Assembly (NCBI GenBank): GCA_025830695.1
Contig: GCA_025830695.1_4111.2
Length of the DNA: 64,000 nucleotides
Origin: a phage
Strand: one strand, 5' to 3'
The notes beneath the pieces are model-generated. The model was not told the origin of the DNA, made no database searches, and was given only the letters and a program-made list of their open reading frames with translations. The translations under genes were made by a program, and so were the position numbers. Below, piece by piece: positions 30,610-34,832 of this stretch (positions are counted from its first letter, which is position 1; the number at the start of each line of letters is the position of its first letter).

Positions 30610-30837
30610 ATGACAAATACTCTTAAGTACTACCTCAATACTCTAAATGAACTAGAGTACGGGGAATTTCTCTCGGATAGTTCGTGGCTAATTGAGCTAA
30701 AAAATTATAATAGTCCAGGATGCACCCTTATGATGAACAATGCAATTGATACCCTCATTGTGAGTATTTTACACAGCAACATCTGCGGGGATAGCAATAA
30801 ACAATTATCAAAAATCTTAGTACTGCTATCTATATGA
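30610..30837 (+). CDS. mini-protein, array A (75 aa)
   Basis: GGAG SD; first of array. Confidence 0.55.
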   Translation: MTNTLKYYLNTLNELEYGEFLSDSSWLIELKNYNSPGCTLMMNNAIDTLIVSILHSNICGDSNKQLSKILVLLSI

Positions 30838-31037
30838 ACATTGAACAGTACTACATCGATGCACTACCAACAAAAGGTCTACGAGAAAGCCTACTGTATA
30901 CACAAAATACTTTTATACACTACAAACGTTGTCCTAAACTCCTGAACTCGTACAGGAGTAATATCATAAGAAATGCTTTACAAGGGGCAGAAAGTATGCA
31001 ATACTATTATATCCTTGCCCTTTTAATCGAGTACTAA
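30834..31037 (+). CDS. mini-protein, array A (67 aa)
   Basis: ATGA overlap; C-term YYILALLIEY. Confidence 0.55.
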   Translation: MNIEQYYIDALPTKGLRESLLYTQNTFIHYKRCPKLLNSYRSNIIRNALQGAESMQYYYILALLIEY

Positions 31038-31038
31038 T

Positions 31039-31248
31039 ATGAATACTGAACATAAAGAATTCTACACCAAATACCTTAGCAACGAAGAACAATTGTTTCT
31101 AAGGAGTGTATCACCTGTAAGTACCAATACTCAATTCGGTAGAGATTGCTTTAATAATTGTATACGTAGTACTCTAGAAGCAATCGAATGCAATAACAAA
31201 AATATTATGTACTCAGGTTTAATAGGACTAATCTACTTCTATGAATAA
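31039..31248 (+). CDS. mini-protein, array A (69 aa), subtype MNxEHKEFY
   Basis: Near-duplicate of 34051..34260. Confidence 0.55.
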   Translation: MNTEHKEFYTKYLSNEEQLFLRSVSPVSTNTQFGRDCFNNCIRSTLEAIECNNKNIMYSGLIGLIYFYE

Positions 31249-31435
31249 TCATAAAGATTTCTATTGTAGTAAACTACACAAGCAAGAACAGCTATCATTC
31301 TCTTTAGCACCACCTATGAGAAAGGATAATCTATATTACAATTACGATTTCAGGATGGCGACACGTTATGCAATAGAACATCAGTTCCCTGAAACTAAGT
31401 ACCGCTCTATCCTGAACCTCATCTTTAAGTTCTAA
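31241..31435 (+). CDS. mini-protein, array A (64 aa), subtype MNN(H/Y)KDFY
   Basis: Overlaps upstream gene; paralog of 34253..34441. Confidence 0.55.
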   Translation: MNNHKDFYCSKLHKQEQLSFSLAPPMRKDNLYYNYDFRMATRYAIEHQFPETKYRSILNLIFKF

Positions 31436-31445
31436 AAGGTGCTAT

Positions 31446-31655
31446 ATGAAAACTACAAACATTCATCAGTACTACATAGATATTCTCCCTAAAGATGTAC
31501 AGTTCATACTTAAACAAGAATTCAGTACTTTAAAAAAACTAAAAAGAACCGCACCTTCAGCAATCATCCAGCACCAAAAAAATGTCGTGCGTAATATACT
31601 ACAAGGTACACCAGGGACCGAGTACTTTAATATAGTAAGGCTAATTACATTATAA
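31446..31655 (+). CDS. mini-protein, array A (69 aa)
   Basis: ORF in tandem array. Confidence 0.55.
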   Translation: MKTTNIHQYYIDILPKDVQFILKQEFSTLKKLKRTAPSAIIQHQKNVVRNILQGTPGTEYFNIVRLITL

Positions 31656-31840
31656 TGAATCATATAAGCTACTACTACCAACAACTATCCGACAGAGACA
31701 AGTACAGTCACAACTCCCATGTGTGGTACTACAAACGCGGCAGTATAAGAGACAAACAACATTACTTCTGTATTTCTATTAAAGAAGCACTGACAACTAA
31801 GTACACGTACCGAGCAGTACTGAAACTTATTGAAATGTAA
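31655..31840 (+). CDS. mini-protein, array A (61 aa)
   Basis: Start overlaps upstream stop. Confidence 0.5.
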   Translation: MNHISYYYQQLSDRDKYSHNSHVWYYKRGSIRDKQHYFCISIKEALTTKYTYRAVLKLIEM

Positions 31841-31848
31841 GGAAGAAA

Positions 31849-32031
31849 ATGAACATAGAATTCTATTTAACTAAACTACAACACGCCGAAAGATTCAACT
31901 TCAATAAGTTCAATATTTTCTACAATTGCGGGAACAAAAAAGATAAACACACCTTCCTATATGTCGTCACAAGAGATGCACAAAACGAAAAGTACACATA
32001 CAGAGAAGTAATGAAACTAATCGCTATTTAA
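31849..32031 (+). CDS. mini-protein, array A (60 aa)
   Basis: AAGGAAG SD. Confidence 0.5.
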   Translation: MNIEFYLTKLQHAERFNFNKFNIFYNCGNKKDKHTFLYVVTRDAQNEKYTYREVMKLIAI

Positions 32032-32039
32032 GGAATACT

Positions 32040-32219
32040 ATGCAACAATTCTATAGAGAACGTATAACCATAAAAGACCGTTTCATGTACGACACCTTCG
32101 TGAAGTACTACAAACTAGGAACAAAAAGTACTAAAAATATTAATCTCAATAACTGCATTTATGCTGTACTAACACAAGATAATCCCTACAGGGAAATCCT
32201 CGCCCTGGCATCTATATAA
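32040..32219 (+). CDS. mini-protein, array A (59 aa)
   Basis: AAGGAA SD; below track cutoff; family-like C-terminus. Confidence 0.4.
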   Translation: MQQFYRERITIKDRFMYDTFVKYYKLGTKSTKNINLNNCIYAVLTQDNPYREILALASI

Positions 32220-32229
32220 AGGAAACCAA

Positions 32230-32901
32230 ATGAAACTTAATGCACACAGCAAACAATACCTTAAGCACTTTAAGTACCTCAATAGTATTCAGGCAGAATC
32301 AGTTACATCTGCATATACGTATCACCCGAATGTACTAAAGAAACGAAATAAAAAGGAAAAATCCAGTACAAATGGAGTTAACGTATCAAAGAACCTTGAA
32401 TTGTACATGAAGAAAAATAATATAGCTGTTCATTATATGAATATCTATAATACTGATTTAAAAGTATTGAGTACTAATACGAGCACAAAGGTACTAAAGA
32501 ACGCATCCTTCATCATCAATATGCAGTTGGATAATACCCCGTGCACTTTAATGCTATACTTCGGGAATACATACTTCTTCGGGAATTGTAACACCTCCCA
32601 CGATGTCAATACAGCACAATTCCAAATGGGTGGCATATACTCTACTGATGCAGAAAAAGTACACGAGAATATGCACTTCTGGCAAGCACAACGTACAGAA
32701 GAAACTGATACAGTACTACAATTCCTCAAAGAATTACAAGGCAAAGAATTATCCGAGGAAGAACTATTCATGTACAGTACTGTAATCGATAATCCAGTAC
32801 TCTATAAAAACGCGTACAATCTGACAAAACATGTACAGGACATTATCAGTACTGATAAGAAAATGCATCACCTCATTACGTATATTACAAACTATGTATA
32901 A
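32230..32901 (+). CDS. hypothetical protein (223 aa) within array A
   Basis: AAAGGAAA SD; largest ORF in array. Confidence 0.6.
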   Translation: MKLNAHSKQYLKHFKYLNSIQAESVTSAYTYHPNVLKKRNKKEKSSTNGVNVSKNLELYMKKNNIAVHYMNIYNTDLKVLSTNTSTKVLKNASFIINMQLDNTPCTLMLYFGNTYFFGNCNTSHDVNTAQFQMGGIYSTDAEKVHENMHFWQAQRTEETDTVLQFLKELQGKELSEEELFMYSTVIDNPVLYKNAYNLTKHVQDIISTDKKMHHLITYITNYV

Positions 32902-33473: not shown

Positions 33474-33474
33474 C

Positions 33475-33663
33475 ATGCATAAAGAATACTACATAAAAGA
33501 TTTACCTCCGCACCTTCAAGGTAATCTGTTAGAAGATGAACCTAGCGGTATAGAAATAAACTACAAAAAAGACTACTTCATTACGTGCACTAAATGCGTG
33601 ATAAATTATTACAACTATAATCAAGTACTGTATCATACCCTGTACCTAGCTTTCGTATTCTAA
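33475..33663 (+). CDS. mini-protein, array A (62 aa)
   Basis: MHKEYYIKDLP; ATG 1 nt after upstream stop. Confidence 0.5.
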   Translation: MHKEYYIKDLPPHLQGNLLEDEPSGIEINYKKDYFITCTKCVINYYNYNQVLYHTLYLAFVF

Positions 33664-33672
33664 GAGAACAAT

Positions 33673-33858
33673 ATGCATAAAGAATTCTACTTAAGCCATC
33701 TCGATCTAAACTCCCAAATGCTTATACCACAAATCCCAATAGATATCAAGGATAAGAAAAATACCGAACAATTCATTTACCATACACAGTGTGCGATCAC
33801 CCCAAATTACATTCCATATGAATTGTACTACATTCTCGCCCTAATATATAGGTACTAA
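33673..33858 (+). CDS. mini-protein, array A (61 aa)
   Basis: MHKEFYLSHL...ILALIYRY. Confidence 0.55.
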   Translation: MHKEFYLSHLDLNSQMLIPQIPIDIKDKKNTEQFIYHTQCAITPNYIPYELYYILALIYRY

Positions 33859-33859
33859 T

Positions 33860-34045
33860 ATGCATAGAGAATACTACACACAATTTGTTAACGGGAACTA
33901 CAAACATGCCGTACCCAGAACCCCTTTAAATTTTCATGACCCAAGTACTATATTCTTGTTTAATGACGCAATACGTACAGTACTCAATACTAAAGATGAA
34001 GATGTGCAGTACGTATTCTTACTATTACTTATATACAGACACTAA
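33860..34045 (+). CDS. mini-protein, array A (61 aa)
   Basis: MHREYYTQFV...LLLLIYRH. Confidence 0.55.
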   Translation: MHREYYTQFVNGNYKHAVPRTPLNFHDPSTIFLFNDAIRTVLNTKDEDVQYVFLLLLIYRH

Positions 34046-34050
34046 CTAAT

Positions 34051-34260
34051 ATGAATAAAGAACATAAAGAATTCTACTCCAAATACATAAGCCCCTCAGA
34101 ACAAATGTTTCTAAGGACTACACCACCTTTAAGTACTAATACATTTTTCGGCAGAGTATGCTACAATAATTGTATTCAAATGACTTTAAACGCAAACGAA
34201 GATGGTAACAGTACTAACCTGTACTCAGGTATCATAGGTATACTATTCCTGTATGAATAA
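34051..34260 (+). CDS. mini-protein, array A (69 aa), subtype MNxEHKEFY
   Basis: Paralog of 31039..31248. Confidence 0.55.
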   Translation: MNKEHKEFYSKYISPSEQMFLRTTPPLSTNTFFGRVCYNNCIQMTLNANEDGNSTNLYSGIIGILFLYE

Positions 34261-34441
34261 TTACAAAGACTTCTATTTGAATACACTACCTACTGTACTT
34301 TCTCTAAGTGCTCAATGTAAAATCCCGCTGGATAATGCTTACGCCAGATATAGCTATTCCATAACTGTTAATCGATGTATAGAGAATCATTGCAGTACTA
34401 ACCAGTACTATAACATAATCCTACTTATATTCAGGTACTAA
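34253..34441 (+). CDS. mini-protein, array A (62 aa)
   Basis: Paralog of 31241..31435. Confidence 0.55.
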   Translation: MNNYKDFYLNTLPTVLSLSAQCKIPLDNAYARYSYSITVNRCIENHCSTNQYYNIILLIFRY

Positions 34442-34442
34442 T

Positions 34443-34625
34443 ATGAATAAAGAACATAAAGAATTCTATATACGAAAACTAACATTCGTCCCCGTAAGAA
34501 TATATAAAGAATGCGACCCAAGATTATACCTATGGCACTTCAATGAGTGCATAAAAGATTCTATATACCCTAAGAACTATAAAGAAAAATTGTGCTCAGT
34601 ACTAACACTAGTACTATCATATTAA
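34443..34625 (+). CDS. mini-protein, array A (60 aa)
   Basis: MNKEHKEFYIRKL. Confidence 0.5.
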   Translation: MNKEHKEFYIRKLTFVPVRIYKECDPRLYLWHFNECIKDSIYPKNYKEKLCSVLTLVLSY

Positions 34626-34640
34626 TTAATAGAGAATACT

Positions 34641-34832
34641 ATGTATAAAAACTTCTATATAAGTAAACTAAAAGAAAATGAACAAGTATGGATTAGATCT
34701 ATAATTCCACTGGCATTTAATAGATATGCATTTAACAGATGTACCGAGATTGCTATAGACCCTTATAATATTAAAGAGAATGTACAGTATAATCAGTACT
34801 ACTATATCTTAATGCTTATATATAGGAAGTAA
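34641..34832 (+). CDS. mini-protein, array A (63 aa)
   Basis: MYKNFYISKL...ILMLIYRK; last of array. Confidence 0.55.
   Translation: MYKNFYISKLKENEQVWIRSIIPLAFNRYAFNRCTEIAIDPYNIKENVQYNQYYYILMLIYRK

What the first reader, a model, noticed from the sequence alone, without database searches (positions are those of the whole stretch)
30610..34832. Array A: 19 tandem mini-genes, a distinct family with internal segmental duplication
A second tandem array of 59-75 aa ORFs shares N-terminal M(H/Y/N)KE(F/Y)Y and C-terminal (I/L)L(L/A)(L/I)I(F/Y)RY motifs. The pair 31039-31435 is duplicated as 34051-34441, so the array grows by block duplication. It is unrelated in sequence to array B and is transcribed divergently from the RCC1 array.
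Basis: seen in the sequence. Interest (0 to 1): 0.75.

Follow-up and report, generated by a model that had tools for sequence, protein, structure and literature searches.

The report
Hypervariable mini-gene array in jumbo coliphage
A 4.2-kb stretch of a giant E. coli phage (121Q/phAPEC6 type) carries one operon of about 18 very different copies of a ~60-residue helical protein of unknown function, and this operon is far more variable between related phages than its flanks, as expected for genes in an arms race with the host.

Summary
Window 30610-34832 (+) holds 19 back-to-back ORFs. Eighteen are 59-75 aa. The ORF at 32230-32901 is an unrelated 223-aa gene found in every relative examined. Seventeen mini-ORFs are demonstrably one family, A01 only marginally.

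The window is an Asteriusvirus jumbo coliphage, 97% identical to CRJP21 and phAPEC6. The core of the family is PHROG 11711 (unknown function). It has no Pfam, NCBIfam, PADLOC or PDB relative. A search of 1.84 billion proteins found only 34 clusters, all 57-69 aa with the same motifs.

AlphaFold gives a confident small all-helical domain (pLDDT 90) with no significant structural neighbour. Its hydrophobic core is conserved and its surface is hypervariable.

One sigma70-type promoter and Shine-Dalgarno site, conserved in all 11 phages compared, precedes the array. Genes are tightly packed, some overlapping, which suggests coupled translation.

Copy number is 13-22. The 11 phages hold 47 sequence clusters, none universal. 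In JNE01 and Turkey5 the divergent block matches the array exactly, while flanking genes stay 82-100% identical. Footprints include an indel flanked by repeats, a micro-homology deletion and a mosaic paralogue. No two paralogues in one genome exceed 61% identity.

Most likely this is an early, non-virion family of binders directed at host proteins (host takeover or counter-defence). That function is inferred, not shown.

The parts
30556..30584 (+). Sigma70-type promoter of the array (TTGACA - 17 nt - TACTAT)
   Evidence: Consensus scan. The -35 TTGACA is invariant, and -10 positions T1, A2 and T6 are conserved in all 11 phages compared, including JNE01 and Turkey5 whose arrays are otherwise unalignable. 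It is the only promoter-like site scoring >=10 of 12 directly upstream of the array (one other 10/12 match lies inside it, at 31627-31656), and the scan found no more sites than shuffled sequence gives (19 vs 31). The stricter scan finds no promoter-like site between about 14.2 kb and 35.4 kb. Function as a promoter is inferred.
30597..30602 (+). Strong Shine-Dalgarno site (AAGGAG) of the first gene
   Evidence: Duplex energy with the anti-SD is -9.3 kcal/mol. TAAGGAGAA is conserved in all 11 phages.
30610..30837 (+). A01, 75 aa; marginal or very divergent member
   Evidence: hhalign against the core gives probability 1.6%. It scores 14.9 bits against an HMM built without it, versus 9.6 for the best of 1000 shuffles. 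No PHROG hit.
30834..31037 (+). A02, 67 aa; subgroup 2 (with A05)
   Evidence: 37% identical to A05. The subgroup profile against the core gives hhalign probability 87.9%, E 3.2e-6, over the full length. Its start overlaps the A01 stop (ATGA).
31039..31248 (+). A03, 69 aa; core member, old duplicate of A16
   Evidence: phrog_11711 E 1.7e-12. 59% aa identity to A16. 75% nt identity over 31033-31277 vs 34045-34289.
31241..31435 (+). A04, 64 aa; core member, overlaps A03 by 8 nt
   Evidence: 34% aa identity to A17. The A16/A17 pair has the same 8-nt overlap architecture.
31446..31655 (+). A05, 69 aa; subgroup 2; polymorphic
   Evidence: Nucleotides 31441-31598 are deleted, with a 9-nt overlap of the alignment blocks, in 121Q, CRJP21, E9.1 and SD-15_S21. 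The gene is intact in phAPEC6, G17, BF17 and A4.
31655..31840 (+). A06, 61 aa; subgroup 3
   Evidence: 32% identical to A07 and 28% to A08. The subgroup profile against the core gives hhalign probability 87.4%, E 3.6e-6.
31849..32031 (+). A07, 60 aa; subgroup 3
   Evidence: A07-like genes are present in four divergent copies in E9.1 and three in BF17.
32040..32219 (+). A08, 59 aa; subgroup 3
32230..32901 (+). A09, 223 aa; unrelated single-copy gene inside the array, present in every relative examined
   Evidence: phrog_29152 E 7e-155. Not related to the mini-family (hhalign probability <1% against the core, A02/A05 and A06-A08 subgroup profiles; 12.7%, E 0.0023, over 26 columns against the A01 group). 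Present in all 11 phages at 39-99% identity. The AlphaFold model is unusable (pLDDT 43).
32894..33094 (+). A10, 66 aa; core member (start at the internal Met, overlapping the A09 stop by 8 nt)
   Evidence: 61% identical to A13 and 44% to A11. In G17 and 121Q it is replaced by two other family genes.
33104..33289 (+). A11, 61 aa; core member, the one modelled
   Evidence: phrog_11711 E 3.3e-28. AlphaFold2 pLDDT 90.2, pTM 0.74, all-alpha.
33291..33473 (+). A12, 60 aa; core member
   Evidence: phrog_11711 E 2e-24. The stop and the next start are 1 nt apart (TAAcATG).
33475..33663 (+). A13, 62 aa; core member, mosaic allele unique to this window among the 11 genomes compared
   Evidence: Nucleotides 25-82 are closest to A10 (74%). 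Nucleotides 83-165 are closest to A11 (82%). Nucleotides 166-201 are identical to the gene at the same position in phAPEC6. It forms a singleton 70% cluster.
33673..33858 (+). A14, 61 aa; core member
33860..34045 (+). A15, 61 aa; core member
34051..34260 (+). A16, 69 aa; core member, old duplicate of A03; polymorphic
   Evidence: Absent, together with A17, from G17 and 121Q.
34253..34441 (+). A17, 62 aa; core member; polymorphic
   Evidence: phrog_11711 E 2.5e-14. 42% identical to A12 and 34% to A04.
34443..34625 (+). A18, 60 aa; core member
   Evidence: It shares the first 9 residues (MNKEHKEFY) with A16.
34641..34832 (+). A19, 63 aa; last core member
   Evidence: phrog_11711 E 7e-24.
34026..34076 (+). 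Left copy of the ~50-nt direct repeat (end of A15 plus start of A16) flanking the A16-A17 indel
   Evidence: 121Q positions 5920-5970 align both to window 34026-34076 and to 34422-34472. By my reading of the two printed sequences, the two copies match at nearly every position once a 4-nt gap is allowed.
34422..34472 (+). Right copy of that direct repeat (end of A17 plus start of A18)

Best explanation
Array A is one transcription unit of an Asteriusvirus jumbo coliphage. A conserved sigma70-type promoter and a strong ribosome-binding site at 30556-30602 are followed by 19 tightly packed or overlapping genes.

Eighteen of these genes encode ancient, highly diverged paralogues of a soluble, Tyr-rich, all-helical domain of about 60 residues. 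The N-terminal helix (KEFY) and the C-terminal helix (ILLLIYRY) carry the conserved hydrophobic positions, presumably the core. The loop and middle helix between them are hypervariable. One conserved, unrelated 223-aa gene sits in the middle of the array.

I infer that host RNA polymerase transcribes the operon early in infection. I also infer that the proteins stay in the cell rather than entering the virion, and that each acts as a small binder or inhibitor of a different host or competitor protein (host takeover or counter-defence). The repertoire is then reshaped by selection.

The conserved gene ends (C-terminal codons, stop, start, N-terminal codons) double as ribosome-binding sites for the next gene. 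They also provide short homologies at which whole genes are lost, gained or swapped by recombination. Stretches inside genes are exchanged between paralogues as well.

Shown here: the coding status, the family, the predicted fold, the conserved promoter and SD, the hypervariability with sharp boundaries, and the recombination footprints. Inferred: early timing, and above all the binder or counter-defence function.
For: Coding status:
- 21 ORFs of >=55 aa against 0.6 expected.
- SD-like complementarity upstream of the starts (P = 2e-6 against random positions).
- dN/dS of 0.29-0.48.
- Synonymous codons vary at conserved residues, so the constraint acts on the protein.

Family:
-, and PHROG 11711.
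- It is orphan: no Pfam, NCBIfam, PADLOC or PDB-sequence hit.
- Only 34 clusters at 50% identity among 1.84e9 representatives, and 41 hits among 5.8e9 proteins.
- tblastn finds 36 phage records, all Escherichia or Salmonella; every one whose taxonomy I read is Asteriusvirus or unassigned.

Fold:
- AlphaFold2 pLDDT 90 with helices at 3-8, 12-15, 28-43 and 47-59.
- Conserved hydrophobic positions against a hypervariable remainder.
- pI ranges from 4.4 to 10 and GRAVY is negative, so the proteins are soluble and have diverse surfaces.

Early and non-structural:
- The promoter and SD are conserved in all 11 phages.
- No T4-type late TATAAATA motif lies within about 24 kb.
- The adjacent + strand region is dense with sigma70-like promoters.
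- In the related phage CBB, such regions of short ORFs are interpreted as early host-takeover genes (PMC5259590).
- The phAPEC6 virion mass-spectrometry table lists the neighbouring RCC1 proteins gp549 and gp551 and proteins as small as 4.7 kDa, but none of gp540c-548c.

Arms-race signature:
- Copy number is 13-22.
- 47 clusters at 70% identity in 11 phages, none universal.
- Against JNE01, the block that cannot be aligned is window 30604-34885, which is exactly the array. Flanks are 88-92% nt identical and flanking proteins 82-100% identical.
- Array dN/dS is 2-3 times that of the flanking early genes, which give 0.13-0.18.

Recombination:
- The A16-A17 indel is flanked by a ~50-nt direct repeat.
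- A05 is deleted with the same breakpoints in four phages.
- A13 is a mosaic.
Against: - There is no expression, proteomic or phenotypic data for any member.
- Early timing rests on a promoter consensus match with an imperfect -10 (TACTAT).
- No similarity to any known anti-defence or host-takeover protein was found.
- The fold is a generic small helical bundle, so structure gives no functional hint.
- dN/dS is below 1 overall, so positive selection is not demonstrated. The per-gene values near or above 1 (A11, A18 and A19 against BF17) rest on 1-2 synonymous changes.
- The sharp divergence block could reflect import of a whole cassette from an unsampled lineage rather than fast evolution in place.
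- Absence from one virion mass-spectrometry list is weak negative evidence for 7-kDa proteins.
- The composition is odd: low G at codon position 1 and negative GC skew on the coding strand. This remains unexplained.
Confidence: 0.5

Rival explanations
1. These are packaged internal head proteins injected with the DNA, like the T4 IPI/IPII/IPIII locus. The conserved N-terminus would be a capsid-targeting signal, and the variable body an injected inhibitor of restriction or defence.
For: There is a formal resemblance to the hyperplastic T-even IP locus: diverse small ORFs that share a short conserved N-terminus and conserved flanks allowing cassette exchange (own knowledge; Repoila 1994, Comeau and Krisch 2005). 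The array's N-terminal M-x-KEFY-I-x-x-L is conserved. The array lies next to virion-associated RCC1 genes.
Against: - No array member appears in the phAPEC6 virion proteome, although 4.7-kDa proteins were detected.
- There is no conserved (L/I)-x-E cleavage motif after the N-terminal segment.
- In the confident model (pLDDT 90) the N-terminal segment forms a short helix (residues 3-8) carrying the invariant Tyr6, so it looks like part of the folded domain rather than a detachable tag.
- The C-terminus is conserved equally strongly, which a targeting-signal model does not explain.
- The promoter is sigma70-type, with no late-promoter motif nearby.
Confidence: 0.08
2. The proteins are partners (chaperones, adaptors or regulators) of the neighbouring tandem RCC1 beta-propeller proteins, with paralogue matched to paralogue.
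For: The two tandem paralogue arrays sit head-to-head, separated by 84 bp. Both vary in content between phages.
Against: - Their evolution is uncoupled. In JNE01 and Turkey5 the adjacent RCC1 genes are 82-96% identical to the window's, while every mini-gene is below 60%.
- Copy numbers do not correspond: 10 RCC1-type ORFs against 18 mini-genes here.
- RCC1 proteins are virion components, presumably late, whereas the array has a sigma70-type promoter.
Confidence: 0.08
3. The genes are functionally dispensable, near-neutral filler: an old lineage-specific expansion that persists and drifts in a jumbo genome with spare capacity, with no specific host targets.
For: - Constraint is relaxed: dN/dS of 0.29-0.48 against 0.13-0.18 in the flanks.
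- Individual genes are lost freely.
- No functional homology is found anywhere.
Against: - Almost all members keep intact reading frames, Shine-Dalgarno sites and the conserved hydrophobic core positions across 11 genomes, although paralogues are <=61% identical and therefore old.
- dN/dS is clearly below 1.
- The promoter and SD are strictly conserved.
- Every Asteriusvirus genome examined keeps 13-22 copies.
Confidence: 0.15
4. The proteins are DNA-binding or transcription-regulating small proteins (HTH-like or RNA-polymerase-binding, like T4 AsiA) that reprogramme transcription.
For: They are small all-helical proteins in a presumed early region. Some members are basic, with pI 9-10.
Against: - pI ranges from 4.4 to 10 within the family.
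- There is no Pfam HTH hit.
- Eighteen divergent copies are hard to reconcile with a single conserved target such as RNA polymerase.
Confidence: 0.07
5. The region is not protein-coding. It would be a ~190-bp DNA or RNA repeat array whose open frames are incidental.
For: The strongest DNA conservation straddles the gene junctions. Base composition is unusual: negative GC skew and low G at codon position 1.
Against: - 21 long ORFs against 0.6 expected, all on one strand.
- Frames are preserved across 11 genomes despite <60% identity.
- dN/dS is below 1.
- Synonymous variation occurs at conserved residues.
- SD sites precede the starts.
- The AlphaFold model is confident.
- There is no Rfam hit.
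Confidence: 0.01

Closest known systems
PHROG family phrog_11711 (unknown function), deposited as 'hypothetical protein', e.g. 121Q gp251-265 and phAPEC6 gp540c-548c
   Same: It is the same family. Five core members tested hit the profile end to end at E 1e-12 to 3e-28. Orthologues are 90-100% identical in CRJP21, phAPEC6, G17 and 121Q.
   Different: The PHROG covers only the core. A02, A06, A08 and A01 do not hit it. They are joined here by profile-profile comparison. Nothing has been published about the family in the literature searched.
Lineage-specific expansions of small proteins in jumbo phages, e.g. about 35 zinc-ribbon copies in Bacillus phage G (Iyer et al. 2021, PMC7824862), and tandem duplication as a route to jumbo genomes (Hua et al. 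2017, as cited in PMC7247149)
   Same: A small domain is multiplied many times within one jumbo-phage lineage. This fits the idea that jumbo genomes expand by tandem duplication.
   Different: The domain here is an orphan helical fold rather than a known nucleic-acid-binding module. All copies lie in one operon. The locus has sharply bounded hypervariability between otherwise near-identical genomes.
The T-even phage internal-protein (IP) hyperplastic locus (own knowledge)
   Same: Diverse small ORFs share short conserved ends, and the conserved flanks act as recombination handles for cassette exchange. The role is an arms race with host defence (IPI* against GmrSD).
   Different: No cleavable capsid-targeting motif, no detection in virions, and a conserved C-terminus as well. 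The sequences and fold are unrelated.
Multigene families of large eukaryotic DNA viruses, such as ASFV MGF110/360/505, and poxvirus 'genomic accordions' (own knowledge)
   Same: Tandem arrays of diverged paralogues vary in number and content between isolates and are thought to counter host immunity.
   Different: No recent amplification is seen: paralogues are <=61% identical within every genome. This is therefore a standing, ancient repertoire remodelled by loss and recombination, not a currently expanding accordion. The host is prokaryotic and the array is polycistronic.
Early 'host-takeover' clusters of short ORFs behind sigma70-type promoters: the SPO1 host-takeover module, T4 and T5 early regions (own knowledge), and CBB_390-546 (PMC5259590)
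   Same: Short ORFs of unknown function lie behind host-type promoters next to the early region.
   Different: Those clusters are mostly unrelated genes, many with their own promoter. Here 17-18 genes are paralogues and share a single promoter.

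Membership tests
phrog_11711 (PHROGs v4) | Significant full-length match to the family HMM | tested here: met
   A03, A11, A12, A17 and A19 give E 1.7e-12 to 3.3e-28 and cover profile positions 1-62. A02, A06, A08 and A01 give no hit. A02/A05 and A06-A08 are linked by hhalign at 87-88% probability.
T4-type internal proteins (capsid-targeted, injected) | An N-terminal capsid-targeting sequence of about 10 residues ending in a prohead-protease site (L/I)-x-E | tested here: not met
   In the column statistics, positions 7-9 are I/T/L, S/K/D and K/Y/H, with no conserved Glu. In the confident model the N-terminal residues 3-8 form a helix that carries the invariant Tyr6.
T4-type internal proteins (capsid-targeted, injected) | Presence in purified virions | tested here: not met
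   The phAPEC6 virion ESI-MS/MS table lists 62 proteins, including gp549, gp551 and a 4.66-kDa protein, but none of gp540c-548c (PMC7247149). This is weak negative evidence for small proteins.
Tandem lineage-specific multigene family (viral 'MGF' or accordion type) | Several paralogues adjacent on one strand, with copy number and content varying between close relatives | tested here: met
   17-18 paralogues in the window and 13-22 in 11 phages. 47 clusters at 70% identity, none universal.
Tandem lineage-specific multigene family (viral 'MGF' or accordion type) | Recent, near-identical duplicates showing ongoing amplification (the accordion phase) | tested here: not met
   The highest paralogue identity within a genome is 42-61% in all 11 genomes.
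Early (host RNA polymerase sigma70-dependent) phage transcription unit | A conserved -35/-10 promoter upstream and no late-promoter motif | tested here: met
   TTGACA-17-TACTAT is conserved in 11 phages. TATAAATA occurs only at 5137 and 5786 in the window.
Early (host RNA polymerase sigma70-dependent) phage transcription unit | A transcript detected in the first minutes of infection | not testable with these tools
   No Asteriusvirus transcriptome was found in the literature searches.
Known anti-defence proteins (Acr, Ocr/Ard, Tad, Gad, Dmd and similar) | Sequence or structural similarity to a characterised inhibitor | tested here: not met
Helix-turn-helix or other DNA-binding small regulators | An HTH fold or profile match | tested here: not met
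   The pI range within the family is 4.4-10.
Small membrane proteins (holin, spanin or superinfection-exclusion type) | A hydrophobic transmembrane segment of about 18-20 residues | tested here: not met
   GRAVY is -0.13 to -0.82 for 17 of the 18 mini-proteins; only the marginal member A01 is positive, at +0.14. The longest hydrophobic run is the ~10-residue C-terminal helix (I-L-L-L-I-Y).

The most novel reading that the evidence does not exclude
The array is a phage-encoded library of miniature binder proteins built on one orphan helical scaffold. Each paralogue would neutralise a different host immunity or physiology protein. The conserved gene junctions (C-terminal codons, stop, start, N-terminal codons, which also serve as the next gene's ribosome-binding site) would act as built-in recombination handles. 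Co-infecting phages could then swap, delete or recombine whole cassettes and sub-gene segments. This would be a modular counter-defence repertoire, analogous to the multigene families of eukaryotic viruses but organised as a single operon with possibly coupled translation.
Probability: 0.25. Interest if true: 0.75.

Novelty: new member of a known kind. Interest (0 to 1): 0.5.

Why it matters
If the inferred role is right, this 4.2-kb operon is a compact source of some 50 or more distinct small inhibitors of E. coli and Salmonella proteins: 47 clusters in only 11 genomes. All sit on one scaffold of about 60 residues that models with high confidence.

That would make it a tractable place to look for new anti-defence or host-takeover activities. 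It could also help explain differences in host range among therapeutic Asteriusvirus phages that are otherwise nearly identical.

It also gives a clean natural example of how a jumbo phage maintains and remodels an ancient multigene family. The remodelling works through junction homology, gene loss and paralogue mosaicism rather than through recent amplification.

If the genes turn out to be dispensable filler, the finding is still a documented hypervariable marker locus for typing these phages.

Tried and rejected
- Pfam, NCBIfam, PADLOC and PDB-sequence searches of members and of A09 gave nothing above noise.
- The AFDB library was not available.
- The AlphaFold model of the 223-aa A09 had pLDDT 43, so it was not used for fold search.
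- I tested whether A09 is a mini-protein with a large insertion or a fusion of several copies. hhalign rejects this.
- Rfam found no RNA family in 30000-37500.
- There are no tRNAs in the window.
- Late-promoter motifs are absent near the array.
With A09 as query it returned only 121Q itself from IMG/VR.
- Literature searches on Asteriusvirus, 121Q/PBECO4/phAPEC6, locus tags and tandem small-gene arrays found no paper that mentions this array or any transcriptome.
- Membrane-protein, DNA-mimic and HTH readings are rejected on composition and fold.
- The 'accordion' reading (ongoing amplification) is rejected because no paralogue pair exceeds 61% identity.

Full report
**What the window is**

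Region 30000-36000 is 97% identical to Escherichia phages vB_EcoM_CRJP21 and phAPEC6, and 94-96% identical to G17, Sharanji, 121Q and others. These are Asteriusvirus jumbo myoviruses of 350-385 kb. In those records the array genes are annotated only as 'hypothetical protein', or are not annotated at all.

**Checking the observation**

On the + strand, 19 ORFs fill 30610-34832 with spacers of -8 to +15 nt. This is far from chance. There are 21 ATG-ORFs of at least 55 aa, against a mean of 0.6 and a maximum of 4 in 500 first-order Markov randomisations. The opposite strand has 2.

Eighteen ORFs are 59-75 aa once two starts are moved to the internal Met that matches the family N-terminus (32894 and 33475). 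The nineteenth, at 32230-32901, encodes 223 aa. It belongs to another PHROG (29152). It is present once in every array examined, at 39-99% identity. Profile comparison shows it is unrelated to the mini-proteins.

**Is it one family?**

All-against-all BLASTP links A03, A04 and A10-A19 at 23-61% identity. It also links A02 with A05 (37%) and A06 with A07 and A08 (26-32%).

- Five core members match phrog_11711 end to end, with E down to 3e-28.
- Profiles built from orthologues in 11 phages join the A02/A05 and A06-A08 subgroups to the core over their full length (hhalign 87-88%, E about 3e-6).
- A01 is not supported by hhalign (probability 1.6%). It scores 14.9 bits against an HMM built without it, versus 9.6 for the best of 1000 shuffles. 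I call it marginal.
Over 182 distinct sequences, Tyr6 is invariant and Leu57 is 96% conserved. Positions 5, 10, 22, 34, 37, 38, 42, 51, 54, 55, 58 and 61 are conserved, and everything else is close to random.
- The family occurs nowhere else in the 64-kb window. E jumps from 2e-10 to 0.14.

**Coding evidence beyond the ORFs**

- Start codons are preceded by anti-SD complementarity (median -3.7 kcal/mol against -0.8 at random positions, P = 2e-6).
- Where stop and start are 1 nt apart (TAAtATG), the SD-like AGG is the codon of the conserved C-terminal Arg (AGG TAC TAA T ATG). The gene end therefore doubles as the ribosome-binding site of the next gene.
- Pooled dN/dS between orthologues is 0.29-0.48.
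- Conserved residues use varying synonymous codons. Leu57, for example, is CTT 7, CTA 7, CTC 1 and CTG 1. The conservation is therefore at protein level.

**Structure**

AlphaFold2 with a 34-sequence family alignment gives pLDDT 90.2 and pTM 0.74 for A11. The helices are at 3-8, 12-15, 28-43 and 47-59, with a loop at 16-27.

The conserved positions are mostly hydrophobic or aromatic and lie in the N-terminal helix, the middle helix and the C-terminal helix. I read them as the core and the variable loop and helix faces as surface; the model coordinates were not inspected.

Apart from marginal member A01, the proteins are soluble (GRAVY negative) and rich in Tyr. They range in pI from 4.4 to 10.

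**Distribution**

- A profile search of 5.8e9 proteins gave 41 hits.
- An exhaustive HMMER search of 1.84e9 cluster representatives gave 34, all 57-69 aa with the same motifs.
- tblastn of the phage collection gave 36 records, all Escherichia or Salmonella phages; those whose taxonomy I read are Asteriusvirus or unassigned.
- There is no Pfam, NCBIfam, PADLOC or PDB-sequence relative.

**Transcription context**

- A TTGACA-17-TACTAT promoter at 30556-30584 and an AAGGAG at 30597-30602 precede A01.
- Both are conserved in all 11 phages, including JNE01 and Turkey5, where the -10 becomes TACAAT or TAGAAT.
- My stricter scan finds no promoter-like site inside the array, and the looser consensus scan finds no more sites there than shuffled sequence gives. 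The T4-type late motif TATAAATA occurs only at 5137 and 5786.
- From 36.7 kb onward, the + strand carries about 30 strong AAAGTACTTGCAA-N16-TATAAT promoters in front of short genes.
- In the related phage CBB, such regions are interpreted as early host-takeover genes (PMC5259590).
- The divergent neighbours are RCC1-repeat proteins. Two of them, gp549 and gp551, are in the phAPEC6 virion proteome. No array protein is, although a 4.66-kDa protein was detected (PMC7247149).

**Variation between phages**

The number of family genes in the array:

| Phage | Copies |
|---|---|
| window | 18 |
| CRJP21 | 17 |
| phAPEC6 | 18 |
| G17 | 17 |
| 121Q | 16 |
| E9.1 | 21 |
| SD-15_S21 | 15 |
| BF17 | 22 |
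| A4 | 17 |
| JNE01 | 13 |
| Turkey5 | 14 |

Clustering at 70% identity gives 47 clusters, none present in all 11 phages.

Against JNE01, DNA identity is 90% up to window 30603 and resumes at 34886 at 89%. The block that cannot be aligned is exactly the array. Flanking proteins are 82-100% identical, while A09 is 39% identical and all mini-proteins are below 60%.

Array dN/dS is 2-3 times that of four flanking early genes, which give 0.13-0.18.

**Mechanisms of change seen**

1. A16-A17 is absent from G17 and 121Q. The indel is flanked by a direct repeat of about 50 nt that spans a gene end and the next gene's start (34026-34076 and 34422-34472).
2. A05 carries the same 158-nt deletion in four phages, with a 9-nt overlap of the alignment blocks at the breakpoint.
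3. A10 is replaced by two other family genes in G17 and 121Q.
4. The window's A13 is a mosaic. Its interior resembles A10 (74%) and then A11 (82%). Its last 36 nt are identical to the gene at the same position in phAPEC6.
6. No paralogue pair within any genome exceeds 61% identity. The array is therefore an ancient standing repertoire remodelled by loss and recombination, not a currently amplifying accordion.

**Interpretation**

The data fit an early, non-virion operon with tight, possibly coupled translation. It encodes a scaffold-plus-variable-surface family under relaxed or diversifying selection. The most economical functional reading is a set of small binders or inhibitors of host proteins (host takeover or counter-defence). 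I put about 0.5 on this overall picture and less, about 0.4, on the binder or counter-defence function itself. The coding family is near certain, and early expression about 0.7.

The rivals are judged less likely for the reasons given in their entries. They are T4-IP-like injected proteins, partners of the RCC1 array, neutral filler, transcription factors, and a non-coding repeat.

**Novelty**

The genes are deposited and clustered (PHROG 11711). They are uncharacterised and not discussed in any paper I could find. Lineage-specific expansions in jumbo phages and viral multigene families are known kinds, so this is a new, well-delimited member of that kind, with an orphan fold.

Noticed in passing
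window 34833-36757, especially 35451-35655: A 1.9-kb stretch downstream of the array has no + strand ORF of >=45 aa spanning it; only two short TTG-start ORFs (60-62 aa) lie inside, at 36197-36458. It holds a perfect sigma70 consensus promoter (TTGACA-16-TATAAT, 35451-35478). This is followed by a candidate structured RNA of about 170 nt (35484-35655). The RNA folds with z = -3.95 and ends in a 14-bp hairpin plus a U-run. It carries two CCUCC motifs. It is 99-100% identical over the aligned stretch in six relatives (100% in five) and shows 5 covarying pairs across the five sequences aligned, including the diverged A4 and Turkey5 versions. There is no Rfam hit.
   Followed up: partly
whole window 1-64000: The palindromes GTAC, AGTACT and CAGTACTG are massively over-represented: 620 observed against 246 expected, 275 against 22, and 59 against 0.9 (first-order Markov). 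In the array, GTAC falls in all three codon frames (not checked elsewhere). They are densest in the ORF-free gap (11 CAGTACTG in 1.9 kb) and in the array (GTAC at 17.5 per kb). GATC and CATG are depleted. CAGTACTG often sits just upstream of the -10 box of promoters. The cause is unknown; a binding site or a modification or restriction-related signal are possibilities.
   Followed up: partly
window 36700-54000, + strand: About 30 copies of a strong early-type promoter element (AAAGTACTTGCAA or TTGACA, N16, TATAAT) are present. Each is followed by a conserved 5'-UTR hairpin (GGGGAGAA..TTCTCCCC) in front of a short gene. The mechanical ORF list extends several genes into this element (the 'MFYIE..' and 'MAYNVLH..' starts), which is probably an artefact.
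   Followed up: partly
window 30610-34832: Although coded on the + strand, the array has negative GC skew (-0.18), like the - strand RCC1 genes and unlike other + strand genes (+0.1). G at codon position 1 is 0.18 against 0.34 in reference genes, and C at position 3 is 0.25 against 0.17. This reflects a Tyr/Asn/His/Ile/Leu-rich, Gly/Ala/Val/Asp-poor composition. The cause is unexplained.
   Followed up: partly
window 18266-30525, - strand: This is a tandem array of about 11 RCC1-repeat genes (Pfam RCC1 and RCC1-like domain). Its content also differs between phages: the window's two array-proximal RCC1 genes have only 26-30% matches in phAPEC6 and 121Q but 82-100% matches in CRJP21, G17, SD-15_S21 and JNE01. 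Two phAPEC6 RCC1 proteins are virion-associated.
   Followed up: partly
window 32230-32901 (A09): A single-copy 223-aa protein of unknown function splits every array into two sub-arrays. It diverges along with the array (39% identity in JNE01 and Turkey5). It carries an in-frame 33-aa deletion in Salmonella phage SD-15_S21. Its AlphaFold model has low confidence (pLDDT 43).
   Followed up: partly
window 35800-36400: Short direct repeats lie in the ORF-free region: GGCTAAACGGCTAGAT-like units around 35880-35990, and four copies of (A/G)ATTTTGGGCGTA at 35804, 35830, 36146 and 36362. These could be protein-binding iterons (an origin or packaging-related site). This was not investigated.
   Followed up: no
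window 30400-38200 compared with L005 (121Q) and L004 (E9.1): Relationships are mosaic. Array orthologues are closer to 121Q and E9.1 (pS 0.04-0.06) than the flanking early genes are (pS 0.20-0.25). The array therefore moves between lineages as a module by recombination.
   Followed up: partly
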